Counted from the first letter of the stretch, positions 1,505 through 58,793 are shown. The stretch is DNA of 64,000 nucleotides from a virus (IMGVR_UViG_3300032770_000004:105963-169962), one strand, 5' to 3'. Numbers and translations: made by a program. The notes: generated from the letters alone by a model not told the origin.

Positions 1505-1511
1505 GTAATCT
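1505..1511 (+). promoter_or_regulatory. GTAATCT element (putative late promoter) heading the tail module
   Basis: Intergenic copy of the recurring motif, followed by a GGACATCG/CGGTGTCC stem (1521-1553). Confidence 0.55.
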
Positions 1512-1573
1512 GTACCACGAGGACATCGATCGGAGCACTTAGCCCCGGTGTCCAATTCCAACTTGAGGTATCC

Positions 1574-1972
1574 ATGCAGAAAACCGAAGAATTTACCGTT
1601 TCCATTCCCACATCTGACGGAGATACTCTCCGAGGAAAATTCAAAATCAAACTACGCCTGAGTCATCGCGATCGTCTTCAGATGGACGAAATCCGCCGAA
1701 GCCTTCTTGGTACCAAATCCTCCGAAGCAAGTCAAGAGGCTTACGGATTGGCAACAGCGCTAGCCAAGATTCAGGTCCATCTAATTGACGCTCCTAGTTG
1801 GTGGAAGGAGAACTCCAACGGACTTGACTTCGAAGACGATGAGGTGGTTCTACGCGTGCTCGAAGCCCTTACAAAGGTTGAGAGTGACTATCAAGCCAAG
1901 ATAAAGAAGGATGCAGATGAGGCTCGTGGAGATCTCAAGAAGGAAATCCTTGAATCTAAGGAGCCTAAGTAA
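1574..1972 (+). CDS. putative tail assembly chaperone
   Basis: Start moved to ATG 1574 (SD GAGG at 1565). Acidic ~130-aa protein (GKFKIK...DAPSWW...D.EVVLRV) upstream of the tape measure gene. Confidence 0.55.
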   Translation: MQKTEEFTVSIPTSDGDTLRGKFKIKLRLSHRDRLQMDEIRRSLLGTKSSEASQEAYGLATALAKIQVHLIDAPSWWKENSNGLDFEDDEVVLRVLEALTKVESDYQAKIKKDADEARGDLKKEILESKEPK

Positions 1973-2235
1973 TGTACGGCTACAACTACCAATGGGTCCA
2001 GCAAGGCTGGCAATGTCCCGTTTGTCAACGCGTATATTCCCCTTCGACGATGATGTGCCTTATGTGCCCTCCCAAGACAGAGGTTGCCACCACGTCAACA
2101 ACCTATACGCCATTTACACAAGTAGACTTAGACTACACCTGCCCACACGGTAAGGTTCTGGGATCGGGCTGTAATGAATGTGCGAGTGGTTGGTCCTTTA
2201 CTACGACCATAAATGACTCCAATAAAAACAAGTAA
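1972..2235 (+). CDS. small Cys-rich zinc-finger protein
   Basis: GWQCPVCQRVYSP..MMCLMC and CPHG...GCNEC motifs; TAATG overlap with the upstream gene. Confidence 0.65.
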   Translation: MYGYNYQWVQQGWQCPVCQRVYSPSTMMCLMCPPKTEVATTSTTYTPFTQVDLDYTCPHGKVLGSGCNECASGWSFTTTINDSNKNK

Positions 2236-2238
2236 TGA

Positions 2239-2745
2239 ATGTCCTGGATCAACGACCTCAAAGCATTAGCGATGCAATCGGTCCTCAAAGAGGATCTCGA
2301 CTACCTTCTGCGTGATATTTTCCGTTGGTACTCCAAGGAGTTTGTCACTCCTTTACACGTTGTAGAGACACTTCCTTTAGAGGATGTTCTTCGGCACTAT
2401 TATGAGGTTAAATATGCCGAACTATCTGAACATGAACGGCTCGAAGAGATTGACCGTCTACTGTTGACAGAAGAGGCCCTCCGAATTCGCAAAGAACAGG
2501 AGGATGCTGATGATGCCGATGCCTTTGAATATGCTAAGGCAGCTGAAAAGGTAGAGAAGTCTAAGGCACAAGCCAAAGAAGACCTGAAGCCACGTGTTGA
2601 ACCTGAAGCTACGCTACCAAAATTGAAGGACATGAAGGAACTCCCACAAGATATGGAGATCACCTTCATTGATGACAATGTAGATCCAGACGCCCTCTTG
2701 GAGGGCAGCTTCGGGCCGCCGTCCAAAAAGCCTAAGAACGGGTAA
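2239..2745 (+). CDS. putative tail assembly chaperone-like protein
   Basis: Acidic helical protein (RWYSKEF.TPLH.VE.LP) located before the tape measure gene. Confidence 0.5.
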   Translation: MSWINDLKALAMQSVLKEDLDYLLRDIFRWYSKEFVTPLHVVETLPLEDVLRHYYEVKYAELSEHERLEEIDRLLLTEEALRIRKEQEDADDADAFEYAKAAEKVEKSKAQAKEDLKPRVEPEATLPKLKDMKELPQDMEITFIDDNVDPDALLEGSFGPPSKKPKNG

Positions 2746-2748
2746 TCT
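2742..2748 (+). promoter_or_regulatory. GTAATCT element
   Basis: 7 nt before ATG 2756, no SD; overlaps the upstream TAA. Confidence 0.55.
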
Positions 2749-2755: not shown

Positions 2756-3259
2756 ATGTCGCGCATGTCCAAGGAATACAACCGCGAAGCTAATCGTCGC
2801 TATCGAGAGCGTCATGGCGAAGCTCTGAAACAACGCAAAGCGGAATGGTATCAAGCCAACAAGGACCCCGCTAAAGAGGCAGCCAGATATGCTGCCGATA
2901 GAGAAAATCAACGCGCTAAAAGACGAGAATACTACCAAGCCAACAAAGAAAATGTTAAGGCCCAAGTCAAGGCCTACGCTCAAAGAAATCCAGATCTGAT
3001 TGTTCGAAGAAACCTTAAACAATATGGCTTGACTTTAGAGCAGTACCAGAAAATGGAAACCGACCAGAATGGACTATGTGCCATTTGTGGGAAACCACCG
3101 ACAAAAGGCCGTAAGCGTTTAAGTGTGGATCATAACCATACCACCGGTAAGGTCCGTCAGTTGCTTTGTGGTCGATGTAACACTGCTATCGGAATGACAG
3201 ATGAGAGCGTAGAAATACTCCATAAAATCATCGACTACCTCAAGAGACATAATCAATGA
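2756..3259 (+). CDS. free-standing endonuclease VII-family (His-Me) homing endonuclease
   Basis: YGLTLEQY..M...QNGLCAICG...LSVDHNHTTGKVRQLLCGRCN, preceded by a basic repeated N-terminal helix. Confidence 0.85.
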   Translation: MSRMSKEYNREANRRYRERHGEALKQRKAEWYQANKDPAKEAARYAADRENQRAKRREYYQANKENVKAQVKAYAQRNPDLIVRRNLKQYGLTLEQYQKMETDQNGLCAICGKPPTKGRKRLSVDHNHTTGKVRQLLCGRCNTAIGMTDESVEILHKIIDYLKRHNQ

Positions 3260-8858: not shown

Positions 8859-9488
8859 ATGGCAACATTTCCAATCAGCGTAGCCGAGCAGACAATGCTC
8901 GATCAAATCAAAGCAGACGGCATTTCGATTAGCTCTCGTGGCGTGGCCGTAGATGTTGATGGTGACGGCACGGGTGATACGCCCTACATTACTGATTTGC
9001 CGATGCCAGTCAAGAACTGGGATACGCTGGTGCCTTCTGGTTCAATCCTTGAAAAGAAGGTAGCCGATGGACTTCGTGTGGCCGCACTTCCCATTGTTCG
9101 TCAGGTGATGCCAATAGGATGGCACGATGAGAATGTTGGTTTCGGCCACTCAATCAGCGGATCCAACGTTACACTCAACAAGTTCAGCATTCCACAGGAC
9201 CAGATTCTCCAGGCCCCCAGACAAGTAATGGCAACCGTATCCTGGTCAGCCTACTCTACAGTGGCGAGCACTGGCGTCAGTTACTTCCTTGACGTAAATG
9301 GCACTCCTACTACATCGATGCCATTCTATTTCAACGAAGCCAACTCGCACAGGTCCATGTCTGGCAACTGGTTGCTTACCATTCCAGCCGGTACAGTAAC
9401 CATCACCTTCTATGCAGTAAGAAGCTCTGGAACGGGTGTTATCACCATGGATTCCAACGACTTCTCATCCCTCACACTGATGGGGTAA
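8859..9488 (+). CDS. putative virion structural protein
   Basis: Beta-rich 209-aa protein in the structural operon, with a DVDGDG motif. Confidence 0.5.
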   Translation: MATFPISVAEQTMLDQIKADGISISSRGVAVDVDGDGTGDTPYITDLPMPVKNWDTLVPSGSILEKKVADGLRVAALPIVRQVMPIGWHDENVGFGHSISGSNVTLNKFSIPQDQILQAPRQVMATVSWSAYSTVASTGVSYFLDVNGTPTTSMPFYFNEANSHRSMSGNWLLTIPAGTVTITFYAVRSSGTGVITMDSNDFSSLTLMG

Positions 9489-9491
9489 TCT
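9485..9491 (+). promoter_or_regulatory. GTAATCT element
   Basis: 8 nt before ATG 9500, no SD. Confidence 0.55.
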
Positions 9492-9499: not shown

Positions 9500-12055
9500 A
9501 TGGCTATTACTGATGACAAGGTCAGGTTCTTTGGACCTGCTACGCTAGCGGCTAACGAAAATAAGGATCCGTTTGGTGCTGGTGGCACTTTCCAGTCGTC
9601 TACCTCCGTTCCGACCGATCCATTCTGGGATGTCGCATATTCTAGTGAGCTTAAGAATCGTTGGGATAAGGTTTATCCTTACCAGCTGCTTATTCTAGAA
9701 CGCGTTAATGGAAGCTATAGCAATGCCAACATAAAGGCACGCTTCACTCTTCCTATTCCTCCCCAAGAACTGAATATCGATATGCCCTTCGCGATTGAAA
9801 CAACAGTCACTATGGGAGGTGTGATTGAAGAGCATAACGGCGCTCCCCTTAGGACAATTACGCTATCAGGAACGACAGGACTTCTGCCGCTTCGAGGCAC
9901 GGTTGTTAAGCCAGGAATTCTTTCTCAAGCAACGACCATCTTTGCTGGTACATTCAGTGGCGTCAATACTATCACCAACTCTTTCAATCAAGCCGGGAAC
10001 GTCCTTGGATTTGATGGCGTGACTCCTCCGAACGTCATTCCTGAGACAGACTTTGATGGAGATCTAGGCAACTCGACCGGATTCTATCAATTCATGCTCT
10101 TGCAACGATTCCTGGAGTCCTACATCACTCAGAAGAAGACGAACGAGGGTCGAAACCTACGACTCGCCTTCGCCATTTGGAAGGAACAGGAAGTCTACAT
10201 TGTCAGTCCCGTTCTGTTTAGCCGCAGACGCAGCGCTGCGTCTCCAATGGAGTATATGTATACGCTCCAACTTCGAGCTTGGCGACGCATTACACTTGAT
10301 GACAATCAAACGCAACCCTACAACAACTCCGTAGGTATTCGAGACATCAATAAACTTGCGCAGATTGCGAATGCCATCGATACAGGACGCAAAATCCTTG
10401 AAGGAGTACGCAATACTCTTCAGGGTGTTCGTGCTGACATCCAGAACATTCTCTTTACTCCTCTTAGAGAGACTGGTCTCTTTGTCAAAGACATGATTGG
10501 CACCTCGCTTGTGGCTACCGACATGCCTTCCAACATCATGCAGGACTTCCGCGAAGGAATTCTAGAGCTGGTAACTCAAGGACAGGGAATCGACCAGCTT
10601 AGCCGCTCATTCAGTCGTGTGCCGCAGACCTATGAACAGACAGTGAGCGATATTCAAGAAGCCTTCCGAGACCTTGCTATCAGCAGCGGCAAGGCTGATA
10701 CTGGAGCTGGCCAAGACCCAGCCAGCAAGCAAGCTGGTTTGTTCGGTGGAACACAAAATGCGAAGAACGCGGATCGCGCCAACAAGATTGCTGCCAATCC
10801 TCTTGATAACTTTAGCTTTTTCAACACCATTCGTATCTCTGACCTTAATCTACGTCCCGCTACTATCAAGAAAATCGAAGACGAGCGCACACGCGTACGC
10901 AACTATCGCCGCGAGGACTTCGAGAAATTCCGAGATCAGACTCTAACCGTCCTGGCCGACTTCAGCGATTTCGTAGGAGCAGGGAACAGTACCTACACCA
11001 AACTCTATGGACTTCCTACACGCACCACGACTCGAACTCCTACTGATGATGAGTGGGATACCATTCACTCACTGAGTCAGCTCGCGCAGACCTATGACAC
11101 CCTAGCTGCTTCGACGACCATCAACCAAGACGTCATTGATGACATTGAATATGTAGCCGGTCTAGCTACTCGCTCTGGCATCGCATTCCGTGTACCCAAG
11201 AGCAAGTTCGCCGTTCCATTCCCATACGGATATACGCTTGAACAATTGGCAGATCGCTACTTGGGAGACCCATTGCGCTGGCATGAAATCGCCACCCTCA
11301 ATGGTCTCCAGGCACCTTACGTCGATGAAACAGGATTCCAGCTTCCACTTCTTGTGAATGGATCTGGAAACGATATTGTCATCAGCGATGCCAGCAACAT
11401 TTTCGTTGGCCAGTTACTGTGGCTTTCCAGCTCGAACGTTCGTCGCGAGTCTCGTCGTGTTCAAAGAGTCGTTCAGACCGGTTCAGGCCAATTTGTTGTG
11501 ACTCTCGATGGAGATTCGGATCTCGTTAAGTTCACCACAGTCGGCGCTTCGATTGTCCAGGGTTTCCTACCGAACACAGTTAATAGCCAGATGCAGATTT
11601 ACATCCCATCCGACATTGAACCTCCTGAAGAAGACTTCAGAGTCAAGAGCATTCCTGGCGTCGACTATTTCGATCCACTCGTACGTACGGGTGGGGTAGA
11701 CTTATTGCTTACCCAGTCTGGCGACCTTGTCATCACACCCGATGGTGATAGTCGTTTGGCCGTAGGTTTGACGAACTTAATCCAGAAGGTACGCTTGGCG
11801 CTCGCTACACCTCGTGGCAGCTTAATGCATCACCCCGACTATGGTATTGGCATCAAGCCGGGAACGAGTACCGCTGACATTTCAGCAAACGATCTTCTAA
11901 ACAGCGCGGATCAGATGTTCAAGGATGACCCAGGATTTACTGGTGTCCAATCCGCAAGTGTCCGAAAAGACACGAATGCTGTGTATATGAAAATCGTAGT
12001 CGGCATTGCTGGCGGCACGATGTACATCCCAGTAGAAGTCCAAGCCAAACAATAA
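9500..12055 (+). CDS. baseplate protein with LysM-like and C-terminal gp25-like domains
   Basis: GYTLEQLADRYLGDPLRWHEIATLNGL (LysM/tail X-like) and NLIQKVRLAL.TPRGSL.HHPDYG (gp25-like). Confidence 0.75.
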   Translation: MAITDDKVRFFGPATLAANENKDPFGAGGTFQSSTSVPTDPFWDVAYSSELKNRWDKVYPYQLLILERVNGSYSNANIKARFTLPIPPQELNIDMPFAIETTVTMGGVIEEHNGAPLRTITLSGTTGLLPLRGTVVKPGILSQATTIFAGTFSGVNTITNSFNQAGNVLGFDGVTPPNVIPETDFDGDLGNSTGFYQFMLLQRFLESYITQKKTNEGRNLRLAFAIWKEQEVYIVSPVLFSRRRSAASPMEYMYTLQLRAWRRITLDDNQTQPYNNSVGIRDINKLAQIANAIDTGRKILEGVRNTLQGVRADIQNILFTPLRETGLFVKDMIGTSLVATDMPSNIMQDFREGILELVTQGQGIDQLSRSFSRVPQTYEQTVSDIQEAFRDLAISSGKADTGAGQDPASKQAGLFGGTQNAKNADRANKIAANPLDNFSFFNTIRISDLNLRPATIKKIEDERTRVRNYRREDFEKFRDQTLTVLADFSDFVGAGNSTYTKLYGLPTRTTTRTPTDDEWDTIHSLSQLAQTYDTLAASTTINQDVIDDIEYVAGLATRSGIAFRVPKSKFAVPFPYGYTLEQLADRYLGDPLRWHEIATLNGLQAPYVDETGFQLPLLVNGSGNDIVISDASNIFVGQLLWLSSSNVRRESRRVQRVVQTGSGQFVVTLDGDSDLVKFTTVGASIVQGFLPNTVNSQMQIYIPSDIEPPEEDFRVKSIPGVDYFDPLVRTGGVDLLLTQSGDLVITPDGDSRLAVGLTNLIQKVRLALATPRGSLMHHPDYGIGIKPGTSTADISANDLLNSADQMFKDDPGFTGVQSASVRKDTNAVYMKIVVGIAGGTMYIPVEVQAKQ

Positions 12056-12064: not shown

Positions 12065-12071
12065 GTAATCT
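12065..12071 (+). promoter_or_regulatory. GTAATCT element
   Basis: Intergenic, upstream of the endonuclease gene at 12114; does not overlap a stop codon. Confidence 0.55.
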
Positions 12072-12113: not shown

Positions 12114-12575
12114 ATGGCAGACAAATGGTATCAGACTTGTGTTCAATCAAAGCGATGCCCTAGATGCGGTAAGTCTAGGGGCTCATCGAAGTCGATCTAT
12201 TGTCAAGCCTGTAGCGTCCATAACGCCAAACAAAAAATGATCCGTAAGAACGCGGGAGACTGTCCTAACCACAGGAACGTTAAGCGTCCGTGTGTTCTAT
12301 GCAAATGGAGCATCGCAGAAAGCTCACTTAGAAAATACGGAATTTCCTTAGAGGAGTTTGCTTGGATGGAACACGCACAAAATCGTTTGTGCGCGATTTG
12401 TCAACAGAGACCAGATTCTGGTCGAGATTTAGCCGTGGATCATGATCACGAAACCGGCCAAATTAGAGGACTACTTTGTGATCGATGCAACCCAGGTATC
12501 GGAATGTTCCCTAAGAAGGAAAATCTATTGCGAGCATACGAGTACCTGAAGAAGTTCGGAAAAGAAAATGGCTGA
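12114..12575 (+). CDS. free-standing endonuclease VII-family homing endonuclease
   Basis: KYGISLEE.....QNRLCAICQ...LAVDHDHETGQIRGLLCDRCN, with N-terminal Cys fingers. Confidence 0.85.
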   Translation: MADKWYQTCVQSKRCPRCGKSRGSSKSIYCQACSVHNAKQKMIRKNAGDCPNHRNVKRPCVLCKWSIAESSLRKYGISLEEFAWMEHAQNRLCAICQQRPDSGRDLAVDHDHETGQIRGLLCDRCNPGIGMFPKKENLLRAYEYLKKFGKENG

Positions 12576-19389: not shown

Positions 19390-20346
19390 GTGACAGACGT
19401 CTCCAATATCGCGCTCTATGGGGATCAGGGTCCTTACTTTGTTCCGCTTGCGCAGATTCAGCCTAACCTTTCAGGAATGTACCTGCTAGGTGCCGTTAAC
19501 AAGCTGAGTCTTGATGCTGTCGTCACGTCTTCCAATCAATTTATAGTAACTCTAGGTGAGCTAGTTACTCGCGCATCGACTAGTGCTTCTGACTATTCTG
19601 TCAGTGGTCCATCAACAATTACGGTGACAGGAGTTACTTGGAACAGCACAGATACGTTCATCACGTGTACCTATACCGGCGCTTTCGTAGCTGGTACATA
19701 CACACTTTCAATTACTGCCGATACCATTTCCGATTTGAACGGAAACTTCAACAGTAACTCTCCTATCCCGCTTCTAAACACGACGTTTTCCGTGCCAACG
19801 ATGACCTATGTCAGTCCTACTGGCGGTGCGTCTACAATACATCTGACCTATTCGTTGCCTCCTTACATTTCTGGAGACGCCGCTGTACCTGCCAATTGGA
19901 TCATCACGGGAAGTGGTGTACCGGTGACAGTCACGAGTGTCACGACATCGGGGAACGACATCGTCTTGGGCGTTACCGAGCAAACCCAGGGGGCTAGCTA
20001 TCAGGTGACAATGCCAGCTGGCATCAGCGGAATTTCAGGCGTTAGCTACATAGCGTTATCTGGATCTTTCGTTGCCAACTTCACCGGAACCGGTATTGCA
20101 CCGACTATCCTAATCGCCTTCCCAGAGAACGATGCATACAAAGTGGACGTAATCTTTAGTGAGGCGGTAGTGGACACCGAAGCTTTGGTTGCTGCTAATT
20201 ACAGCATCAACAATGGGTTGCAGGTGTACTCCGTGGATAAGCTAAGTGATAGCTCCTATCGTCTCCACACAAGCCAGCAAACCGCTGGAGTAGTGTACAC
20301 CCTCATCGTTAGCAACATTCATGATCTCAAGGGGAATCTGATTTAA
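19390..20346 (+). CDS. virion protein with three Ig-like repeats
   Basis: Repeated V.FS..V....A...ANYSI-type modules; GTG start. Confidence 0.6.
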   Translation: MTDVSNIALYGDQGPYFVPLAQIQPNLSGMYLLGAVNKLSLDAVVTSSNQFIVTLGELVTRASTSASDYSVSGPSTITVTGVTWNSTDTFITCTYTGAFVAGTYTLSITADTISDLNGNFNSNSPIPLLNTTFSVPTMTYVSPTGGASTIHLTYSLPPYISGDAAVPANWIITGSGVPVTVTSVTTSGNDIVLGVTEQTQGASYQVTMPAGISGISGVSYIALSGSFVANFTGTGIAPTILIAFPENDAYKVDVIFSEAVVDTEALVAANYSINNGLQVYSVDKLSDSSYRLHTSQQTAGVVYTLIVSNIHDLKGNLI

Positions 20347-24994: not shown

Positions 24995-25419
24995 GAGCAC
25001 GTTCGATAGTCACAGCAGGTGTCATTTGTTACATTAATGGTAAGCCTTTCGGGCGCGTCAAGGACTTTAGATTTGAAAGTTCTACCGGCAAGAAGCCGCA
25101 GTACGCTGTCGACACGCTTGAGCCATACGAGTTGATTCCCACTATTACCAGGGTTACGGGGAGCATGACACTTCAACGTACTGTAGGAGACGCAGGTGCA
25201 GAAGGAGCTGCCTTGACGGTTCGTTTCGAAGACCTCCCACGCGAGCGTTACTTTAGCGTTCAACTCATTGAACGAGTCAGTGATACCCTCATTTTCGAAG
25301 CAAAATACTGTGCAGTTACGCGTCAATCCTGGAGTTTCCCCGAGAAAGGGGTTGTCACCGGATCCGTGGAATTCGAAGCCATCGACTGGTCCAATGAACT
25401 TCGCCCAGCCCAGGCGTAA
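24991..25419 (+). CDS. tail tube-like protein
   Basis: 142 aa with YINGKPFGRV...PYELIPT..RVTG...SW.....GVV.GSVEFEAID, a tube-fold pattern. Confidence 0.55.
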   Translation: MRARSIVTAGVICYINGKPFGRVKDFRFESSTGKKPQYAVDTLEPYELIPTITRVTGSMTLQRTVGDAGAEGAALTVRFEDLPRERYFSVQLIERVSDTLIFEAKYCAVTRQSWSFPEKGVVTGSVEFEAIDWSNELRPAQA

Positions 25420-25446
25420 TCTTTGATCTATCGAGGTTTGATAGAT
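25416..25446 (+). promoter_or_regulatory. GTAATCT element plus RBS-sequestering hairpin
   Basis: GTAATCT at 25416-25422. The hairpin ATCTATCGA-GGT-TTGATAGAT (25426-25446) covers SD GAGG and the AT of ATG 25445. Confidence 0.65.
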
Positions 25447-25843
25447 GAAAATTTGCAAGTGTGGTCAAGAATTTGAAGGAAAATGGAAGTGTGCTAAGTG
25501 CAAATCTCAGTATCAGCACGATTGGTATCAGAAAAACAAACATAAAATTTATATAGATCCTCGTGCTAAAGCAAGCAAAAAGAAATGGCGAAACAAAAAG
25601 GCGGCAGAGTGGACGAAGAAATATCACAATCTTAAGCGCGGACCTTGTGTGGATTGCGGTAAGACTTATCAACCCTGGCAAATGCAATTTGATCATATTG
25701 GTGATGACAAATTCGATAATGTCGCCACAATGGTTCATGATTTCAAGCCCTTTGAAGAAATTGTAGCAGAGATTAAGAAATGCGATTTGGTTTGCGCAAA
25801 TTGCCGTGCTGATCGTACCTATAAACGTTTGCATTCCGAGTAA
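25445..25843 (+). CDS. free-standing HNH endonuclease
   Basis: PCVDCG......MQFDH......V..MV......EI.KCDLVCANC; AT-rich relative to its flanks. Confidence 0.85.
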   Translation: MKICKCGQEFEGKWKCAKCKSQYQHDWYQKNKHKIYIDPRAKASKKKWRNKKAAEWTKKYHNLKRGPCVDCGKTYQPWQMQFDHIGDDKFDNVATMVHDFKPFEEIVAEIKKCDLVCANCRADRTYKRLHSE

Positions 25844-25846
25844 TCT
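25840..25846 (+). promoter_or_regulatory. GTAATCT element
   Basis: Upstream of the tail fibre gene; SD AGGAG follows. Confidence 0.55.
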
Positions 25847-28460: not shown

Positions 28461-29000
28461 ATGGCTGATTTTGAAGATGCAATCGGTGTCATACTAGCGC
28501 ATGAGGGTGGCTGGTGTTCTGTTGCTGCGGATCCTGGTGGCGAGACCAATTATGGTATCAGCACCCTCATTATCGAACGCGAAGGCATCACCAATGAGCA
28601 ACTTGGATTACCGCCAGGAAGAGATCCTGGTTGGATGAAAGCCATGTCCGTAGATGCAGCCAAGATGATCTACCAGAATCTATTTTGGAACAAATGGGAA
28701 TATGGCGCTATTTCGGATCAGACAGCAGCTACCAAGCTCTTTGACTGTTCCGTCAACTGTGGGCCCAATAGAGCCCATTTAATGGCCCAGAAAGCCGCCA
28801 ACGCCTGTGGCCAGAATATCGCTGAAGATGGAATTTTGGGACCCGCCACGGTCGCTGCTATTAACGCTTGCGATCCAAAGGCTTGGGTAACCGCGTTCGC
28901 CCAGGAAATGACAGACTACTACACTAACCTTGTCAAGGCCCGTCCAAGTCTCGGGATCTTCTTGAAAAATTGGCTGCACCGAGCTTCTTGGGGCGTGTAA
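28461..29000 (+). CDS. endolysin, glycoside hydrolase family 108
   Basis: HEGG......DPGGETNYGI catalytic motif, DGILGP.T, and C-terminal FLKNWLHRA (PG-binding 3). Confidence 0.92.
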   Translation: MADFEDAIGVILAHEGGWCSVAADPGGETNYGISTLIIEREGITNEQLGLPPGRDPGWMKAMSVDAAKMIYQNLFWNKWEYGAISDQTAATKLFDCSVNCGPNRAHLMAQKAANACGQNIAEDGILGPATVAAINACDPKAWVTAFAQEMTDYYTNLVKARPSLGIFLKNWLHRASWGV

Positions 29001-29003
29001 TCT
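28997..29003 (+). promoter_or_regulatory. GTAATCT element
   Basis: Upstream of the gene at 29022 (SD AAGGAG). Confidence 0.55.
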
Positions 29004-31828: not shown

Positions 31829-31944
31829 TACATGATCTCCGGATGGGGAATGTTAAAAACGTGACAGGCGACATGCAAACAGGTGCGAATCGCCCAAAGA
31901 ACTTCCGGAGTGGTATAGGCGGCAAGTCGCATCAGGGAGTTCAT
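31828..31944 (-). CDS. 38-aa small protein (not in ORF track)
   Basis: MNSLMRLAAYTTPEVLWAIRTCLHVACHVFNIPHPEIM*; TAATG-coupled to cca; directly downstream of promoter motifs. Confidence 0.55.
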   Translation of the reverse strand: MNSLMRLAAYTTPEVLWAIRTCLHVACHVFNIPHPEIM

Positions 31945-31952
31945 ATATCGGG

Positions 31953-31982
31953 AAAGTATCATGTCGGTAGATTACCTGTCAA
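31953..31982 (-). promoter_or_regulatory. sigma70-like promoter with embedded GTAATCT element
   Basis: TTGACA-18 nt-TACTTT with an extended TG; GTAATCT (31975-31969) lies in the spacer. Confidence 0.6.
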
Positions 31983-32006: not shown

Positions 32007-32027
32007 GTGTAGTAATCTCAACTACAT
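32007..32027 (+). promoter_or_regulatory. GTAATCT element within a hairpin
   Basis: GTAATCT at 32012-32018, 9 nt before ATG 32028; TGTAGT/ACTACA stem. Confidence 0.6.
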
Positions 32028-43655: not shown

Positions 43656-44390
43656 TTACCTTTGTTTGTTGATTGATTGATCCTTCAGGAGATGCTTAAT
43701 CTCTTTGAAGGCTTTGAGAACGGTATTGGTATCGGTTGTTTTCGGTGCCTCTACCGTTACATGTTTGCCACCGAAAATCCGAGAAGCGAGAGGTTCGATC
43801 ATGTCTTCCGGAACACCAGTAATTATAACTGGGATGGCCTTGGCGTTGTCGCCAGTAAGTGTTTCAGCACTTCGTACGGCTGCACGCTCCAAGAGCGGGC
43901 CGAGAACCTCATTCAAGAAGTACTTGTTGAGATAGGAGTCTACTACAGTATCTACATCAGATGCCGCAGGTACTACCTTCACTCCGTCAAACTCAGGAAC
44001 AGGAATGCTTGTCATGCCCAGGTCGGCTGCTGTATGGCGCACTTCACGGAGAAGTACTCCTAGGGAGTGAGGGCCAAATTCACGGTTGTTGCCAATGCTT
44101 AGCTTGGTAGCTTCGCGAATGGAACCTGTCGCCTGTCGGTAATCTACCGTAGCTATTTCTGCCTGTTCCTTAGCTAGCTTGATGAATTCATCGGTACCGG
44201 GTCCTGTTACGAATACCGGGAATCCAATCTGCTTGAAAAGGCGGCTAAACTCGCGCACCAAATTGGGGATCGCAAAAGCAGCGGCCTTACGGGCAGCCTC
44301 ACGACCAGGACGCGTACGAAAGTCGCCAGATACTGGCGTTTCCGCGAGGGTACGCGCATCACGGAGTTTGGTTAGGGCTTCTTTAAACAT
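43656..44390 (-). CDS. hypothetical protein, possibly a degenerate P-loop fold
   Basis: Start moved to MFKEAL. PVFVTGPGT and PVIITG strands, but no GKT/S. Confidence 0.6.
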   Translation of the reverse strand: MFKEALTKLRDARTLAETPVSGDFRTRPGREAARKAAAFAIPNLVREFSRLFKQIGFPVFVTGPGTDEFIKLAKEQAEIATVDYRQATGSIREATKLSIGNNREFGPHSLGVLLREVRHTAADLGMTSIPVPEFDGVKVVPAASDVDTVVDSYLNKYFLNEVLGPLLERAAVRSAETLTGDNAKAIPVIITGVPEDMIEPLASRIFGGKHVTVEAPKTTDTNTVLKAFKEIKHLLKDQSINKQR

Positions 44391-48267: not shown

Positions 48268-48563
48268 TCCTTTCGACCATTTCCTCGCTTCTCTTTTGCA
48301 AGGATCTTAACGTTGAAATACGGTTGATGCTGAATCGATACAACATAACGCAGATTACACTTGACACAAGTCAATGAAGATCCGCCATTGTCGAATTCAA
48401 GCTCGTTGTGGGGACATTTCTTTGGATCTACAGATTCCTCTTTCTTCTTTTCCTTCTCCGTATCTTTGAGGCTCTGTTTGATCATTTTGACATACTTAGG
48501 ACCAAACCCTTTCTCGACACGCTTCAGGAATTCCTTCAGCCAATCTTCATTGTTCTTAGCCAT
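48264..48563 (-). CDS. zinc-ribbon hypothetical protein
   Basis: CPH...CVKC motifs. Confidence 0.65.
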   Translation of the reverse strand: MAKNNEDWLKEFLKRVEKGFGPKYVKMIKQSLKDTEKEKKKEESVDPKKCPHNELEFDNGGSSLTCVKCNLRYVVSIQHQPYFNVKILAKEKRGNGRKE

Positions 48564-52452: not shown

Positions 52453-55089
52453 TTACCCACAAGATCCTGCCTTGCTGATTTCACAGATATCCGTACCTTC
52501 GACAAAGACTTCACCGACGTGTTTAATTGCGGTTGAATATTTGACTGGGGATAACGGCTGGCCACCACGTGCTCCATCTGGGTAAACAGTCACTCCACGA
52601 AGCTTCGGGAGGTACTTGATGAGCATTGTACCAAATTCGCGAACCTTACTGTCGTTGTTCAACTCGGATCCCCATGAAGGTAGATTGATAGTCGAGCTAA
52701 TTCCGTGGTCGACATACTGCTGAACCCAAGCCTGGAATGCCACGCGGCGTTCCACATTTTCTGCAAGAGTGTAGGCATCTTCGATGATGTCAGGATTCAC
52801 ACCAGAATCAATCAAACGCTGTGCGGTTGGATCCACAACATACTGATACTGAACCAGCTGGCCCTTTAGATAGCGACGCTTATAGGCAACGCAAAAAATG
52901 GGCTCAATTCCAGTAGTGGTCTCGGCAACGATGCCGATTGTTCCCGTGGGGGCAATAGCACGAGTCTTGACAGGAACAGAGAGGTCCCATTCCTTGGCGT
53001 ACTTCTTTGCGTAGACATCAGAGGTGGCATAAATCTTAAGGTACTCTTCCAAATCTGGATCCGGGCCATATGTCTTACCATGCATCAATAGCCACTCGTG
53101 AAGGCCCATTAGACCCAAACCAAGGCGACGATTTTTAGTGCGGATTTTGTCAACTAGAGGGTAGGGAACATCCGAATAGACACTTCCAGCTAGAAGGAAA
53201 GCGGTTGCCAATTCCACTGCGCGTTTCATTTCTTCCAAGGACTCAATACGCGAGAGATTAATACTGCCAATGTTACAGATGTCACTATCGTCAGAACTGG
53301 TGATTTCAGTACAATTGGCAATGACAACGCCTTCCGCAACAAAGGAGTGCTCTGGAACACCTACATCACAACAGTAGACATCCTGATCCACATCAGATGT
53401 GACCGAAACGACCTTGATGGTAGTAGAACGGTAAGGTGTGTGTGGATTTGGCTTGATGCGAACAGTCGGAATCAGCTCAATGAATCTGTTGACAGAACTT
53501 TCGTTGACGGTCAGATTCCATCCTTGATGGTTGCCAAACGTAGAAATACCAGCAGCAGAAATACCAGATTGGATACCCAAGGTTTCAAGCGCCCTACGAG
53601 CACCTTCCAAAAAAGACCTATGTACAGACGACAATCGAATTCTGTTTTGATCCTTATCGTAGGACCCGTCTGAGTCAAAAAGACCTGCGATAAAGGACGC
53701 TGTAGATGTCACACGATCACACTGTTCGTTAAACATGTCCATGGATTCTGGATAGATTTCTTTGGTTCGACCTCGAAATACCTCATCCTTAAGGTACATT
53801 CTAGTATAGCCACGCCCATCTCTTTCGGTTACCGACTGAATTAGCGGACTACCTGCCATAGCGCTTACGCACTTTTTGGATTCGTCTGTACAGAAAGTGA
53901 TTTCGGCACGATTTTCGTAGCGCTTACAGAAGCTACCGTCTCCATACGTGTATCCTAAGACGTATGACTCACGGTCTCGGTTACCTACCTTGACTGAAGG
54001 TAGAGACACTGCCAAAACGTCACCTTCTTCAAGAAGCCCGGCAGGAATGCGTTCTGTCTTGACGAGTTTTCTACGCTCACCAGCGCCTTCGTATCGTTCT
54101 ACTAAAAACTCATGAGTAGGATCGGCAACGATCTCGCGACCACCAGTCATTGTCACCCTAACCGTAGCAGCCATCTCTTTGGTGCGCTTAAATTCTGTCG
54201 TAGCCCATTGTGAACCGGTCCAGACTGTCACCTTATGGCCAACGATAGCACCTACCTGACGGTATCCGGTAGAAGTCAATACCCAAGTATCGGCGGCCAC
54301 TGGAGCGTTGCGAAGGTTCTCCTTCACGTTCTTACCGATATCGATACTGAATCCAGGCTCAGCTGTCTTGAGCATTTGACGCACTGTCGCCCAGTACACT
54401 GATTGTGCATATCCATGCTTTTCGTGTTTAGAGTCGTGATATGCCTCGAAGAATTCATCATCAAGGATGACCGAAATGTTGGTGCCGTCCATTGTGGCTG
54501 GGAAGTTGTAGTCTTTTTCCTTCAGAGCACGGACTTCGGGGATCCAATTTTTGAGGGTGATGAACTTCTGGCTATCAGCATGGCTCCAATGAAGGCCCGC
54601 CCAAATGGCTGAACGGCGAGAGCCGCCTTGCATAATGCCTCTACCAGCTTCATTGACCATCTGCATTAGAGCAAGCGGGCCAGTAGCAAATCCACCAGTC
54701 TTACGAATGGGTTTGCCTTCAGCTCGAACATCCGAATACACTATGCCAATCCCGGCTCCAGTCATAAGAGCCATAGAGGATTTATGCATCAAGTCAGCCC
54801 AACCCTCGCGGCTATCTTCAGCACGCATCAGGAGGCAGTTCTGGGTCTGATGGAATGGACGACCAGAAGCATAAAGATATCGGCCTCCAGGCATGAATTT
54901 GCGATCAGCGATCAGCTTCTCGATTTCTTTCACGAGAGGCTTTGGTGCATTGACAGCACGCATGACTGCATGAGATACACGCTTAGCAATTTCTTCCCAT
55001 GTTTCTTTTTTACCATCAGCAAGAGTATGAGAATACTTCTGGAGCATAATCGCGTGCGCGAATGGAGAAAACGACTTAGGGTCTTTCAT
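52453..55089 (-). CDS. nrdJ: ribonucleotide reductase, probably class II (B12-dependent), intein-containing
   Basis: FMPGGR, NC, QGGSRRSA, NA|CTE, CNIGSINL, RRLGLG, IAPTGT, GIEP and ISSTINL motifs; no ATP cone and no nrdB in the window; start moved to MKDPKSF. Confidence 0.88.
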   Translation of the reverse strand: MKDPKSFSPFAHAIMLQKYSHTLADGKKETWEEIAKRVSHAVMRAVNAPKPLVKEIEKLIADRKFMPGGRYLYASGRPFHQTQNCLLMRAEDSREGWADLMHKSSMALMTGAGIGIVYSDVRAEGKPIRKTGGFATGPLALMQMVNEAGRGIMQGGSRRSAIWAGLHWSHADSQKFITLKNWIPEVRALKEKDYNFPATMDGTNISVILDDEFFEAYHDSKHEKHGYAQSVYWATVRQMLKTAEPGFSIDIGKNVKENLRNAPVAADTWVLTSTGYRQVGAIVGHKVTVWTGSQWATTEFKRTKEMAATVRVTMTGGREIVADPTHEFLVERYEGAGERRKLVKTERIPAGLLEEGDVLAVSLPSVKVGNRDRESYVLGYTYGDGSFCKRYENRAEITFCTDESKKCVSAMAGSPLIQSVTERDGRGYTRMYLKDEVFRGRTKEIYPESMDMFNEQCDRVTSTASFIAGLFDSDGSYDKDQNRIRLSSVHRSFLEGARRALETLGIQSGISAAGISTFGNHQGWNLTVNESSVNRFIELIPTVRIKPNPHTPYRSTTIKVVSVTSDVDQDVYCCDVGVPEHSFVAEGVVIANCTEITSSDDSDICNIGSINLSRIESLEEMKRAVELATAFLLAGSVYSDVPYPLVDKIRTKNRRLGLGLMGLHEWLLMHGKTYGPDPDLEEYLKIYATSDVYAKKYAKEWDLSVPVKTRAIAPTGTIGIVAETTTGIEPIFCVAYKRRYLKGQLVQYQYVVDPTAQRLIDSGVNPDIIEDAYTLAENVERRVAFQAWVQQYVDHGISSTINLPSWGSELNNDSKVREFGTMLIKYLPKLRGVTVYPDGARGGQPLSPVKYSTAIKHVGEVFVEGTDICEISKAGSCG
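53314..54303 (-). mobile_element. 330-aa intein with LAGLIDADG homing endonuclease, starting with Pro
   Basis: PVAADTWVLTSTGY...ADPTHEF...LGYTYGDGS...IAGLFDSDGS...VYCCDV..HSFVAEGVVIAN|C; removal restores NACTE. Confidence 0.9.
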
Positions 55090-55436
55090 TTCTTTTCCTT
55101 GGGCGGCTTCCAAACGGTGTCATCTTTGGGCCGGATCGATTCATAGTTTTGGAGATAGTCTGCGACTCGTTGGGCTCTACGTACGTTAATGCCCCTACCC
55201 ACAAAGGTCGTATTACAACGAAAACAAAGCAGCCCGCGCACGTAAAGTTTACGTTGCTCGGGCGGCATTTTCTTCCATTTCTTGACATGGAAGTGGTCTA
55301 TACAAAGACGGCCCTTGGTTGGTTCTTGTTCGCAAACGAAGCAGACGCCACCTTGGCGATCCAAAATTGCTTGCCATTCTTCAAGAGACAGGCCGTATTT
55401 CTTCAGCGTGGCTGGTGAAGGAGCAAGTACTTTCAT
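55086..55436 (-). CDS. endonuclease VII-family nuclease (possible Holliday junction resolvase)
   Basis: KKYGLS.......QGGVCFVC......LCIDHFH....VRGLLCFRCN. Confidence 0.85.
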   Translation of the reverse strand: MKVLAPSPATLKKYGLSLEEWQAILDRQGGVCFVCEQEPTKGRLCIDHFHVKKWKKMPPEQRKLYVRGLLCFRCNTTFVGRGINVRRAQRVADYLQNYESIRPKDDTVWKPPKEKK

Positions 55437-55451: not shown

Positions 55452-55458
55452 AGATTAC
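55452..55458 (-). promoter_or_regulatory. GTAATCT element
   Basis: Intergenic, 15 nt before ATG 55436. Confidence 0.55.
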
Positions 55459-55461
55459 GCC

Positions 55462-56086: not shown

Positions 56087-57909
56087 TAGACCACCACGCT
56101 TTGGCCGTTGGCGTATACGACGTCAATGACCTTTAGGAAGTTCTCTTTGAACTCGCTAGCGTGATCGATTACCAGTACGAGGCGCGTCTCCGCAAACTCG
56201 CGAAGTACTTCGAGGGCGGTTTCGAAGGTCACCTGACCTACGCCAACGAAGACTTCATCTAGGCAGAGCCAGCCTATGGTCTTGCCTGCACGGCGGCTGA
56301 TGACAGTGATGACAGCAAGATCTACTTGCTGCTCTACACTAGTCTGCATACCTCCGCTTAGACCTGACTTCAACTTAGCTTGATTGCCGTTGACATTAAC
56401 GACTGCATTGATTTGACGTCGGCCTATGCCCTTGCCACTTACCTTCTCGGTCTGGAATCCGATCCGGACATTGGTGACATTAGCCATGTTGGCGAGGCGA
56501 GCGTTAGCCTCATCTGCAATCTCACGTAGCACATCATCAAAGATTACGCCGAGAAAGCCTTCACGGCCCATCATACTGACAAAATCCCTCTCAGCACGAT
56601 ATTCTGCGTCTAGTTCGTTTACTTGAATTTGCAGATTGTCAACATCCTGCTGTTCCTTTTTGAAGCGAGCCTCTTCTCTGGCTAGATTCGACAGGAGGAT
56701 TTCCTTCATTTTGATGTCATTGGCGACATCCCTCTTAAGGAGTGCCAACTCGTGCTTCCTCTGTGTGAAGTTAGGATCCATCTTCGTCTGGAGCAGCTGA
56801 TCTCGAACCTCTTCCAGCTTTTTGATGTTGGGATCCGTAGTGAAGACCTTCTCCTTGATGGCTCGTTGAACTTTGGCTAGTTCTTCGTTCCAATGGCCAA
56901 TGGCATTTGCCTGGGTGGTGTACATCCGAATTTCTTTTTGAACGATGAGTTGCTCGGCCGTATTGTCATCGTTCTCCCAGACCTGATCGCAGGTATAGCA
57001 GCGATTGTTACGGAGCACCTTTAAGCGCCCTTCGAGAGTCTTAATCTCTTCGAGAGCGTGTTGGCAATCTAGGATAGCCCTAACAAACTGCGGTTCCTGT
57101 GCATGAAGAACAGCAAGCTCTTTGTCATGGATTCGACGGCGATCAGCATCGTTCTTTTTGGCGACTTCCAAGAAGGCTTCAGCTTTGGCAAGCTTATCCT
57201 GGAAGTCCTTCACCTTGTAGGTCTTGTCGAGCTGCTCTAATTCGCTATCGATAGCCACCTGTTTTACCAGAAGAGCCTGAAGTTCTTCTTCGAGTTTGGT
57301 GCGATCAGAGGCGAGGATGGGAGTAAGCGTTTTACGTTTGAATTCCAAGGTCTCACGGAAGACCTGAAGACGCACGTCAATGTCGGCAGCCTTTTTTTCG
57401 GCAGAGTCAACCGCTTTCTCAATTGCTTCTAAACCGAGCACTGCCGTCAAGAACTCAATCTTTTCGGCAGGAGCCAAACTGAGAAACAAGCCTGGAGTCT
57501 TCTGGGCTCTATATGTCAACGCCTTGAGGATGTCTGGCGTGAACCCGAAAAGCTTGACTTGTTCTTCAGCTATGGCTGCTGATCCGGTTATGGTGCGTTC
57601 ACCAATTTTGAGAAAGTTCTTCTTTCCACGTCCGATTATAACCTCTTGACCGTCTGCTTCAAGAGTCAGAGTTACTTGCATCGGTACTTTCGAACCCCAC
57701 GTTTGAAGGTCGGTAGCCGAGAACTCGGAAGGAAGGATATCCAAAGCGTAAGCAATCGCCAGCAGAATACTTGACTTACCAGCTCCACTTGGGTCTCCTG
57801 TTTCTGGATTTTGACCTCTGATCAGAACAAGGCCTTTGTCAGGAAACTTGATGTCAGCATCGGCAAAGCTTCTGAAGCTTTGCATTTTGAGTTCCTTTAG
57901 TTTGACCAT
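56086..57909 (-). CDS. sbcC: SbcC/Rad50/gp46-like ATPase
   Basis: GAGKSS, coiled coil with CYTC zinc hook, LSGG, LCLDE and IDH motifs. Confidence 0.9.
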   Translation of the reverse strand: MVKLKELKMQSFRSFADADIKFPDKGLVLIRGQNPETGDPSGAGKSSILLAIAYALDILPSEFSATDLQTWGSKVPMQVTLTLEADGQEVIIGRGKKNFLKIGERTITGSAAIAEEQVKLFGFTPDILKALTYRAQKTPGLFLSLAPAEKIEFLTAVLGLEAIEKAVDSAEKKAADIDVRLQVFRETLEFKRKTLTPILASDRTKLEEELQALLVKQVAIDSELEQLDKTYKVKDFQDKLAKAEAFLEVAKKNDADRRRIHDKELAVLHAQEPQFVRAILDCQHALEEIKTLEGRLKVLRNNRCYTCDQVWENDDNTAEQLIVQKEIRMYTTQANAIGHWNEELAKVQRAIKEKVFTTDPNIKKLEEVRDQLLQTKMDPNFTQRKHELALLKRDVANDIKMKEILLSNLAREEARFKKEQQDVDNLQIQVNELDAEYRAERDFVSMMGREGFLGVIFDDVLREIADEANARLANMANVTNVRIGFQTEKVSGKGIGRRQINAVVNVNGNQAKLKSGLSGGMQTSVEQQVDLAVITVISRRAGKTIGWLCLDEVFVGVGQVTFETALEVLREFAETRLVLVIDHASEFKENFLKVIDVVYANGQSVVV

Positions 57910-58088
57910 TACGCTGCCTCACCGTGCCAGACCAAAACCGGTTGATTCTTGGTTGGGCACACCCAGAACCACCAAAAGAGAATACCACCGTATTGAGTTT
58001 TGGCATCAACAGGATTCCCCATCTGACTGAACTCTTGGTTTCCATGAGTCTCTCCGCAGCGTGGGCACTTTTTGATGTCAATCTTCAT
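57909..58088 (-). CDS. 59-aa zinc-binding protein (not in ORF track)
   Basis: MKIDIKKCPRCGETHGNQEF...WFWVCPTKNQPVLVWHGEAA*; coupled at both ends. Confidence 0.65.
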   Translation of the reverse strand: MKIDIKKCPRCGETHGNQEFSQMGNPVDAKTQYGGILFWWFWVCPTKNQPVLVWHGEAA

Positions 58089-58333
58089 ATGATTTCTGGA
58101 TCCTTCTTGTCTTTGGCATGGTCCTTAGTTAGTTCGACCGCATCTCGATTGCGTTCTAATGCACGTGGCATCAGACCATTGTCAAGACGCTCCATTACGG
58201 TAGCGGAGCCATTATTCATCATGGTCATCGGCTGACCGCACTCGCATACTATTGATCCACTCTTCGGCAGCTCCGGGAGTAGCTTCCGTTTCGATCTCCC
58301 GCAGCTCGAACAGTTCCATTTGTACAGGGCCAT
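58085..58333 (-). CDS. FmdB-like zinc-ribbon protein
   Basis: MALYKWNCSSCG...VCECG; start moved to 58333. Confidence 0.7.
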   Translation of the reverse strand: MALYKWNCSSCGRSKRKLLPELPKSGSIVCECGQPMTMMNNGSATVMERLDNGLMPRALERNRDAVELTKDHAKDKKDPEII

Positions 58334-58779
58334 TATCTGTCCTTGTGCGGACAGATACCGCCATTTCGTTGTCGTCCAAGATTGCAGTTGAAACACATGA
58401 TTTGAAACGCATCTTTTGGATATCCTTGTTGTTGAAGCCATCGATACATATGGATCCCAGCACGACGATCTCCCAGAACTTCTTTTCGATGCTTAGTACC
58501 GTTTCCATTTACATGATCTATGGTAAGAAATAATGGGGAGGTTTCCCCGCAACATACACAAGTGCCGCCATAAGCGGCCATTGTCTGTTGTGTGATTACT
58601 TTACGTCTTCGAGCGTTGATCTTAGCGTTAACGCCAGGATGCTCTTTGTTCCATTTGCGTACTCTAGCGTTCTGTTTCTCTCGAAATTTGGAATCGTTTT
58701 TTCTGCGTATTCTACGAGCTGCGTTGATCTTGTCGCGATTTTTTTCTCGGTATCTGCGTGCTTGTTCTTTGGTAGCCAT
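58333..58779 (-). CDS. free-standing HNH endonuclease
   Basis: YGGTCVCCGE....FLTIDHVNGNG...FQIMCFNCN...CPH. Confidence 0.85.
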   Translation of the reverse strand: MATKEQARRYREKNRDKINAARRIRRKNDSKFREKQNARVRKWNKEHPGVNAKINARRRKVITQQTMAAYGGTCVCCGETSPLFLTIDHVNGNGTKHRKEVLGDRRAGIHMYRWLQQQGYPKDAFQIMCFNCNLGRQRNGGICPHKDR

Positions 58780-58786
58780 GGACAAT

Positions 58787-58793
58787 AGATTAC
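58787..58793 (-). promoter_or_regulatory. GTAATCT element
   Basis: 7 nt before ATG 58779, no SD; overlaps the groEL TAA. Confidence 0.55.

What the first reader, a model, noticed from the sequence alone, without database searches (positions are those of the whole stretch)
1505..58793. GTAATCT regulon: candidate -10-only late promoter found in front of every free-standing endonuclease gene
Seen: GTAATCT lies within about 65 nt upstream of a start codon at 11 sites (+1505, +2742, +9485, +12065, +25416, +25840, +28997, +32012, -31975, -55458, -58793). These include all 6 HNH/EndoVII genes, on either strand, and several tail genes. At 2756, 9500, 32028 and 58779 the ATG follows at 7-9 nt with no SD, which is where a transcript would start after a TANNNT-type -10. 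Six copies overlap the upstream TAA and five do not. About 8 copies of any 7-mer are expected by chance over both strands; I saw only four intragenic copies by eye (20149, 44139, 48352, 56541). Known: T4 late promoters are a single -10-like element read by gp55, and T4 homing endonuclease genes carry their own late promoters. Inference: this is the target of the sigma factor at 62982 and defines a late, partly leaderless transcription system.
Basis: partly seen in the sequence, partly recalled or inferred. Interest (0 to 1): 0.8.

Follow-up and report, generated by a model that had tools for sequence, protein, structure and literature searches.

The report
Phage late promoter GTAATCT, often leaderless
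The 7-base word GTAATCT in this uncultured relative of Myxococcus phage Mx1 is almost certainly a compact, -10-only promoter, placed before tail genes and nearly every homing-endonuclease gene, often so close to the ATG that the message has no leader; it is a well-supported new example of a known phage strategy.

Summary
All 15 copies are where stated (about 6.4 expected). Eleven lie 6-62 nt before a start codon, including all six HNH/EndoVII genes of the window. The window is the last 64 kb of a 170-kb Mx1-like phage genome that holds 40 copies. Of these, 32 lie outside gene interiors (17% of the DNA; p~1e-17). GTAATCT is the top 7-mer for being followed by ATG at 6-10 nt.

- There is no -35 partner, and one-mismatch variants are not enriched.
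- Copies 7-10 nt from the ATG never have a Shine-Dalgarno (0/15). Copies 15-62 nt away nearly always do (12/13).
- Two copies sit 6-7 nt before mature tRNA 5' ends.
- Antisense copies inside genes are depleted (1 vs 10.5 expected), while sense copies are not. This marks a DNA-level promoter.
- The core AATCT recurs at orthologous late-gene junctions in about 20 relatives.
- The ORF at 62982 is a divergent sigma70-family protein that ends before region 4.2, the -35 reader. It is the likely reader of the motif, but this is untested.

Endonuclease genes either brought the promoter with them (GroEL junction) or landed behind an existing one (baseplate-wedge junction). This scan found the same motif before, in this genome and in other Mx1-like genomes. 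I found no published study of it.

The parts
1505..1511 (+). GTAATCT copy in the divergent gap that heads the rightward tail block. It lies 62 nt before the ATG at 1574 (tail-assembly-chaperone-like gene, with SD).
2742..2748 (+). GTAATCT overlapping the TAA of gene 2239-2745. It lies 7 nt before the ATG of the EndoVII gene 2756-3259, with no SD (leaderless type).
9485..9491 (+). GTAATCT overlapping the upstream TAA, 8 nt before the ATG of baseplate-assembly gene 9500-12055, with no SD. The arrangement is conserved in Mx1 (ACAATCT-N7-ATG) and in IMG/VR relatives.
12065..12071 (+). GTAATCT 42 nt before EndoVII gene 12114-12575 (with SD), which overlaps the 1930-aa wedge gene. In 15 of 21 relatives this gap holds an AATCT element and no endonuclease gene, so the promoter was there before the insertion.
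25416..25422 (+). GTAATCT on the upstream TAA, 22 nt before HNH gene 25445-25843 (with SD).
25840..25846 (+). GTAATCT on the TAA of the HNH gene, 15 nt before the 865-aa gene 25862-28459 (with SD).
28997..29003 (+). GTAATCT on the TAA of the endolysin gene (28461-29000), 18 nt before the 115-aa gene 29022-29369 (with SD).
31969..31975 (-). GTAATCT in a divergent gap, back to back with the copy at 32012. It lies 6 nt before a 44-aa ORF whose end overlaps the ATG of the tRNA nucleotidyltransferase gene (31121-31828).
32012..32018 (+). GTAATCT 9 nt before the ATG of HNH gene 32028-32504, with no SD.
55452..55458 (-). GTAATCT 15 nt before EndoVII gene 55086-55436, with no SD. It sits inside the leftward replication/repair block, where the neighbouring genes lack the motif.
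58787..58793 (-). GTAATCT on the TAA of the GroEL-like gene, 7 nt before HNH gene 58333-58779. Four relatives lack both the HNH gene and the motif here. In this genome the last GroEL codon (Pro in relatives, Gly here) supplies the G of the motif.
20149..20155 (+). Intragenic sense copy, 192 nt before the 1548-aa gene. It may be tolerated or may act as an internal promoter.
44139..44145 (+). The only antisense intragenic copy in the whole genome.
48352..48358 (-). Intragenic sense copy, 84 nt before the 1294-aa gene.
56541..56547 (-). Intragenic sense copy inside the SbcC-like gene.
62982..63998 (+). Divergent sigma70-family gene, the candidate reader of the motif. The full protein is 351 aa, and the last 12 aa lie past the window end, across the 127-bp terminal repeat. 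It has regions 1.2/2, 3 and 4.1 and ends before the region 4.2 helix-turn-helix.

Best explanation
GTAATCT(W) is a single-element, -10-type promoter of this Mx1-like phage. In sigma70 numbering, TAATCT fits TANNNT at about -12 to -7, with an extra G at -13 and no -35 box. Transcription should start 7-8 nt downstream of the motif.

At about half of the sites that position is the A of the ATG, or the first base of a tRNA. Those messages would have no leader and no ribosome-binding site. At the other sites a short leader carries a normal Shine-Dalgarno.

The motif heads the tail, baseplate and lysis-side genes. It also serves almost every free-standing HNH/EndoVII gene, wherever that gene sits. 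This gives the endonucleases phage-late expression, as is known for T4 homing endonuclease genes.

The most likely reader is host core RNA polymerase carrying the phage's own sigma (ORF 62982). That sigma keeps the -10-reading region 2 but lacks the -35-reading region 4.2.

Shown: the motif statistics, its geometry, its conservation and the sigma's identity. Inferred: the start sites, the late timing and the pairing of this sigma with this motif. My separate odds are about 0.85 that it is a promoter, about 0.6 that the phage sigma reads it, and about 0.65 that it is late.
For: - Enrichment: 15 copies vs 6.4 expected in the window. The genome has 40, vs 20 for the reversed control. 32 of 40 lie outside gene interiors, which make up 17% of the DNA, and this is the top 7-mer (p~1e-17).
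- Spacing: it is the top 7-mer for ATG at 6-10 nt (18/40, p~8e-10).
- Specificity: the flanks carry no information, so there is no -35. One-mismatch and NNAATCT variants are not enriched in this genome.
- Spacer versus SD: 0/15 have an SD at 7-10 nt, 12/13 at 15-62 nt.
- tRNAs: copies lie 7 and 6 nt before mature tRNA-Gln and tRNA-Met.
- Strand asymmetry inside genes: antisense copies 1 vs 10.5 expected (0/300 codon shuffles); sense copies 7 vs 6.9.
- Stop control: 10/100 TAA stops carry the motif vs about 1 expected.
- A separate host-type promoter class, TTGACA-N16-18-TAnnnT, has varied -10 hexamers.
- Conservation: AATCT is the top 5-mer 5-10 nt before the first ATG of ORFs of at least 400 aa in 21 related loci (11/102). 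It is present in the baseplate-wedge gap of 15/21 relatives and before the baseplate gene of Mx1. GYAATCT is about 4-fold over control in the two closer complete relatives.
- Sigma: the profile hits only sigma factors in the PDB (41 sequences, E down to 1.7e-6). The top 50 Foldseek matches listed are almost all primary sigma chains. The model ends after two region-4.1-like helices. Mx1 has a homologue.
- No RNAP beta-like gene is present in the genome.
Against: - No transcript 5' ends or expression timing exist for this phage or for Mx1. The Mx1 genome announcement, PMC10720576, says nothing on promoters or a phage sigma.
- Nothing ties this sigma to this motif beyond co-occurrence and the missing region 4.2.
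- Two copies, those before the tRNAs, have a good TTGACA at -35 distance. Two host-type promoters use ATAATCT as their -10. Host sigma-A may therefore read at least some copies.
- In Mx1 and some distant relatives the exact word is barely enriched and only the AATCT core is kept.
- Many downstream genes have no known function, so 'late' rests on the tail/baseplate/lysis subset.
- My gene model is a home-made coding-potential caller.
Confidence: 0.62

Rival explanations
1. The motif is a -10-only promoter, but it is read by the host primary sigma. A small phage protein may disable -35 recognition, as P23-45 gp39 or T4 AsiA do. The phage sigma would then have another target.
For: - TAATCT satisfies TANNNT.
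- Two copies have TTGACA at the correct spacing, and host-type promoters with ATAATCT exist.
- Host-type promoters in this genome are also flush against ATGs, so leaderless starts do not need a special sigma.
- There is precedent in Thermus phages and T4 (PMC4124052).
Against: - All seven positions are invariant, including the inner -10 bases and a G at -13. Host-type promoters of the same genome vary freely at those positions.
- A phage sigma lacking region 4.2 is encoded here and in Mx1.
Confidence: 0.2
2. GTAATCT is the binding site of a phage activator or repressor placed over the -10 region, and is not itself the sigma contact.
For: It is short, invariant and asymmetric at a fixed distance from start codons. 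Nothing here separates a sigma contact from another DNA-binding protein.
Against: - The word has the TANNNT form.
- It sits exactly where a -10 must be for starts at the ATG or at tRNA 5' ends.
- No other promoter-like element accompanies it.
- A 7-bp asymmetric site is unusually short for a typical regulator.
Confidence: 0.06
3. It is an RNA-level signal in the transcript (GUAAUCU): either a processing site that trims leaders or a non-SD ribosome-binding element.
For: The 7-8 nt spacing to AUG resembles SD-to-AUG spacing. The motif is strand-specific with respect to genes.
Against: - Thirteen copies lie 15-62 nt upstream, and 12 of these have their own SD.
- Two copies precede tRNAs.
- Copies head divergent gaps.
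- Sense copies inside mRNAs are not depleted while antisense copies are. This is the reverse of what an RNA signal predicts.
Confidence: 0.04
4. It is a homing-endonuclease recognition site, or the end of a mobile cassette, and not an expression signal.
For: About 14 of the 34 non-coding copies precede endonuclease genes. At the GroEL junction the motif is present only together with the HNH gene.
Against: - About 20 copies precede non-endonuclease genes or tRNAs.
- The same core sits before late genes in relatives that have no endonuclease gene there.
- There is no homology beyond the 7-mer.
- The geometry relative to ATG and SD is that of a promoter.
Confidence: 0.03

Closest known systems
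phiEco32 gp36-dependent middle/late promoters (PMC12276001)
   Same: A phage-encoded sigma directs host core polymerase to a single short element (AATGTA centred at -11.5) with no -35 box. Early genes use host sigma70 promoters.
   Different: The sequence differs (GTAATCT). gp36 is a two-domain protein, sigma2-like plus sigma4-like. The sigma here has an N-terminal extension, regions 2 and 3, and only region 4.1. No gp79-like partner was identified. Leaderless placement is not reported there.
Phage T4 late transcription (gp55 sigma, TATAAATA at -10) and T4 homing-endonuclease genes with their own late/middle promoters (established knowledge)
   Same: Both have a -10-only late element and a sigma without a -35 reader. 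In both, free-standing endonuclease genes scattered in early and late regions each have a late promoter.
   Different: gp55 is a minimal sigma that needs gp33 and the sliding clamp, and none of that was tested or seen here. The motif differs. T4 late mRNAs have leaders.
Thermus phage late/middle promoters (P23-45 and, by citation only, phiYS40) and '-10 adjacent to ORF' leaderless genes of Deinococcus-Thermus (PMC4124052, PMC12340547)
   Same: Both have -10-only promoters for late phage genes. In both, the -10 box lies a few bases before the ATG, giving leaderless mRNA.
   Different: There the host sigma-A reads extended -10 promoters after a phage protein (gp39) disables -35 use. Here a phage sigma is the likelier reader and the element is not a TG-extended -10. 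The phiYS40 paper (PMC1885378) is not held, so I could not check it.

Membership tests
sigma70-type -10 promoter element (TANNNT) | T at -12, A at -11 and T at -7 of a hexamer | tested here: met
   TAATCT is present in all 40 copies. The clade-wide core AATCT keeps the A(-11) and T(-7) equivalents.
sigma70-type -10 promoter element (TANNNT) | Transcription starts 6-9 nt downstream of the hexamer | not testable with these tools
   This is only indirect. ATG lies at 7-10 nt without an SD at 15 sites, and mature tRNA 5' ends lie at 6-7 nt at 2 sites.
-10/-35 (host-type) promoter | TTGACA-like element 16-18 bp upstream of the -10 | tested here: not met
   No information content from -45 to -1 across 34 sites. 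Only 2 sites have TTGACA.
Leaderless mRNA genes | No Shine-Dalgarno, with the promoter -10 abutting the start codon | tested here: met
   0/15 flush sites have GGAG/GAGG/AGGA, compared with 12/13 of the distal sites.
Leaderless mRNA genes | The mRNA 5' end is the A of the AUG | not testable with these tools
   No transcript data exist.
sigma70 family (ORF 62982) | Region 2 (core binding, -10 recognition and melting) | tested here: met
   The profile hits 41 PDB sigma sequences (E down to 1.7e-6). Foldseek's listed top hits are almost all sigma chains (prob 1.0 for the best). Pfam Sigma70_r2 scores only 13.7 bits, below the 24-bit cut-off.
sigma70 family (ORF 62982) | Region 4.2 helix-turn-helix that reads the -35 box | tested here: not met
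   The alignment ends at the 'LLRMKG' equivalent of region 4.1. The model's last helices are 316-334 and 338-346 of 351 residues.
phiEco32 gp36-type system | Two-domain (sigma2 + sigma4) phage sigma with a gp79-type co-factor | tested here: not met
   The domain layout is different. A gp79 homologue was not searched for.
T4 late system | gp55/gp33 homologues and clamp dependence | not tested
   No search for gp55 or gp33 homologues was made. Clamp dependence needs biochemistry.
Free-standing homing endonuclease genes | HNH/EndoVII nuclease domain in a small stand-alone ORF, sporadically present between conserved genes | tested here: met
   Domains are shown. The genes are absent from relatives at the GroEL junction (4/4) and at the baseplate-wedge junction (21/21). 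Nuclease activity and homing are untested.

The most novel reading that the evidence does not exclude
A whole, largely uncultured clade of 170-kb Mx1-like phages runs its late programme with a sigma that keeps regions 1.2-3 and 4.1 but has naturally lost the -35 reader. It reads a 7-bp box so compact that it can overlap the preceding stop codon and start the RNA on the ATG or on the first base of a tRNA. The box also acts as a portable or capturable expression signal that lets homing-endonuclease genes spread to any position in the genome.
Probability: 0.4. Interest if true: 0.6.

Novelty: new member of a known kind. Interest (0 to 1): 0.45.

Why it matters
It gives a testable transcription map for a large phage group that has one cultured member (Mx1, on Myxococcus xanthus) and no published transcription study. 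The map has host-type early promoters and a 7-bp late box, both often producing leaderless messages. It offers a natural sigma factor without region 4.2 for studying -10-only initiation. It also shows how selfish endonuclease genes obtain late expression: by carrying the box, or by inserting behind one. For annotation, the box fixes start codons for SD-less genes that gene callers miss or extend, including several HNH genes that my coding-potential caller missed.

Tried and rejected
- Megablast of 20 kb against GenBank phages gave no match. A protein search was needed to find Mx1.
- A first greedy longest-ORF gene model was too noisy. I replaced it with a coding-potential model, which still missed several endonuclease genes.
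- One-mismatch and NNAATCT variants are not enriched in this genome.
- No upstream partner element was found.
- The pooled 5-mer non-coding enrichment across relatives was swamped by AT-rich words, because GC ranges from 34 to 66%. I replaced it with a start-anchored test.
- The top non-coding word of Mx1, GGATCT, is the spacer of its sigma70-type early promoters and is unrelated to this motif.
- The exact GTAATCT is only weakly informative in Mx1.
- The search for a single-subunit RNAP (PF00940) is uninformative because its controls did not ring.
- No promoter could be assigned to the sigma/helicase operon.


Full report
**What the window is.** The window is bases 105963-169962 of a 169,962-bp virus record whose ends repeat over 127 bp. 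Its 851-aa baseplate protein is 41% identical to the 'baseplate assembly protein' of Myxococcus phage Mx1 (OR576727.2, 169,621 bp), the only GenBank phage hit. The plus-strand block from about 1570 to 29370 holds tail, baseplate-wedge and endolysin genes. The minus-strand block from 29370 to 60620 holds replication and repair genes: a tRNA nucleotidyltransferase, an SbcC-like gene and a GroEL-like gene.

**The observation.** All 15 copies lie at the stated coordinates, where shuffles give 6.4 +/- 2.7. The six endonuclease genes are real: three Endonuclease_7 and three HNH.

**Genome-wide statistics.**
- The genome has 40 copies, against 20 for the reversed word.
- With a coding-potential gene model, 32 of 40 copies lie outside gene interiors, which make up 17% of the DNA. 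GTAATCT is the most non-coding-enriched 7-mer (p~1e-17), ahead of the tRNA T-arm word.
- It is also first of all 7-mers for being followed by ATG at 6-10 nt (18/40, p~8e-10). Nine copies have exactly 7 nt.
- The TAA embedded in the word does not explain the enrichment. Ten of 100 TAA stops carry the full context where about one is expected, and 24 non-coding copies touch no stop.
- The 45 bases upstream carry no information, so there is no -35 partner. Only the base after the word is biased, towards A or T.
- No one-mismatch variant and no other NNAATCT word is enriched in this genome.

**Promoter or something else.** Four results point to a DNA-level transcription signal.
1. Spacer versus SD. 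The 15 copies that lie 7-10 nt before the ATG of an ORF of at least 87 aa never have a Shine-Dalgarno. Of the 13 copies at 15-62 nt, 12 have one just before the ATG. A start site about 7 nt after the box predicts this split. An alternative ribosome-binding site does not.
2. tRNA genes. Two copies lie 7 and 6 nt before the mature 5' ends of tRNA-Gln and tRNA-Met, so translation cannot be the point.
3. Strand asymmetry inside genes. Codon-order shuffles predict 6.9 sense and 10.5 antisense copies. The observed counts are 7 and 1, and none of 300 shuffles goes as low for antisense. Selection removes copies that would fire against genes and tolerates co-directional ones. An RNA signal predicts the opposite.
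4. Position. Copies head divergent gaps: window 1505, the back-to-back pair at 31975/32012, and genome 15551/15555.

**A separate class from host-type promoters.** The genome also has about twenty TTGACA-N16-18-TAnnnT promoters with varied -10 hexamers (TATAGT, TAGGAT, TATACT and others). They lie mostly before small genes of early-looking blocks, and many are also flush against the ATG. Leaderless starts are therefore general in this phage. What sets GTAATCT apart is its invariant interior, the G at -13 and the absence of a -35. Mx1's strongest non-coding word, GGATCT, is the spacer of such early promoters and is unrelated.

**Conservation.**
- Before the baseplate gene, Mx1 has ACAATCT-N7-ATG. 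A 43%-GC IMG/VR relative with 32% protein identity has GTAATCT-N8-ATG.
- In 21 non-redundant related loci (GC 34-66%), AATCT is the top 5-mer at 5-10 nt before the first ATG of the 102 ORFs of at least 400 aa (11 hits; my own estimate of the chance expectation is about 0.6). The overlapping ATCTT comes second.
- The otherwise unalignable gap between the baseplate and wedge genes holds an AATCT element in 15 of 21 relatives.
- GYAATCT is about four-fold over its control in two complete relatives, less so in a third, and not at all in two more distant ones. The bases before the core therefore drift between lineages.

**The sigma factor.**
- ORF 62982 (351 aa) has no Pfam or PHROG hit above threshold. 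Sigma70_r2 scores only 13.7 bits.
- Its 12 best single-sequence PDB matches are all sigma-A region 2.
- A 26-sequence profile hits 41 PDB sequences, all sigma factors (E down to 1.7e-6), aligned from region 1.2/2 to the 'LLRMKG' equivalent of sigma70 region 4.1.
- JGI names many of the 394 homologues 'specialized sigma subunit'.
- The AlphaFold model (pLDDT 76.7) matches primary-sigma chains in nearly all of the top 50 Foldseek hits listed. Its last helices are 316-334 and 338-346 of 351 residues. The -35-reading helix-turn-helix is therefore absent, which fits a -10-only target.
- Mx1 has a homologue at 38% identity.
- No RNAP beta-like gene is present in the genome.
- The pairing of this sigma with this box is an inference. 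The main rival is host sigma-A redirected to -10-only promoters by a small phage protein, as in P23-45 or T4.

**Endonuclease genes.** Genome-wide there are seven EndoVII genes, seven HNH genes and two phrog_4645 endonuclease genes. About 14 have an exact copy just upstream. One has only GCAATCT, one has none and is translationally coupled, and one has the copy inside the gene, just before the nuclease domain. Two routes are visible.
- At the GroEL junction, four relatives have neither the HNH gene nor any AATCT element. In this genome the last GroEL codon (Pro in relatives, Gly here) supplies the G of GTAATCT-N7-ATG-HNH. The box came with, or arose with, the insertion.
- At the baseplate-wedge junction the box is ancestral (15 of 21 relatives) and no relative has an endonuclease gene there. 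The EndoVII gene at 12114 therefore inserted behind an existing promoter.

In the minus-strand replication block, only the endonuclease genes carry the box. This parallels the late promoters of T4 homing-endonuclease genes (established knowledge).

**Literature and earlier scan notes.** The Mx1 genome announcement says nothing on promoters or a phage sigma. I found no transcription study of Mx1 in the held library. The closest documented analogue is phiEco32: a single AATGTA element at -11.5 read by the phage sigma gp36, which is built differently. Earlier notes of this scan reached the same reading on another window of this genome and on other Mx1-like genomes. I tested their claims independently.

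**Verdict.** This is a real, strongly supported promoter motif and a new member of the known kind 'phage single-element late promoter with its own sigma'. It has frequent leaderless placement and a clear link to homing-endonuclease genes. Still untested are the start sites, the timing and which sigma reads the box.

Noticed in passing
window 60620-61484: An 860-nt non-coding region lies upstream of the helicase/sigma operon. It has several copies of GCTACTTAGAC in both orientations, G-rich hairpins followed by T runs, and an AGATCTAACGTTAGATCT palindrome near 61390. It has no GTAATCT and no clear sigma70-type promoter. It may be an origin, a packaging region or a regulatory region.
   Followed up: partly
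genome 18.6-40 kb (+) and 101-107 kb (-); window 959 (-) and 1499 (-): About twenty host-type promoters (TTGACA-N16-18-TAnnnT) are present. Many have the ATG 5-7 nt after the -10, so early genes also look leaderless.
   Followed up: partly
Mx1 (OR576727.2) 86-118 kb, minus strand: Mx1 early promoters share a conserved GGATCT word in the spacer between TTGAC and a TAGTAT-like -10. There are 62 non-coding copies.
   Followed up: partly
genome 39980-39994 and 47532-47545: The box, with a TTGACA at -35 distance, sits 7 and 6 nt before the mature 5' ends of tRNA-Gln and tRNA-Met. These tRNAs may be made without a 5' leader, and so without need of RNase P.
   Followed up: partly
window 31828-31962 (-): A 44-aa ORF starts 6 nt after the box, and its last codons overlap the ATG of the tRNA nucleotidyltransferase gene. 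It may be a leaderless upstream ORF coupled to that gene.
   Followed up: no
genome 15545-15561 and 96468-96494: Two unusual arrangements occur: a back-to-back divergent pair, AGATTAC-gtt-GTAATCT, and a tandem pair 20 nt apart. The second copy of the tandem pair lies 7 nt before a 37-aa ORF.
   Followed up: no
genome 92327-92785: An EndoVII gene carries GTAATCT inside the reading frame, 5 nt before the start of the nuclease domain. This may be a remnant of a fusion with an upstream ORF, or an internal start.
   Followed up: no
window 50238-50417 (-): A weak HNH-like stretch (phrog_2255, 27.6 bits) lies inside a 422-aa ORF that has no box upstream.
   Followed up: no
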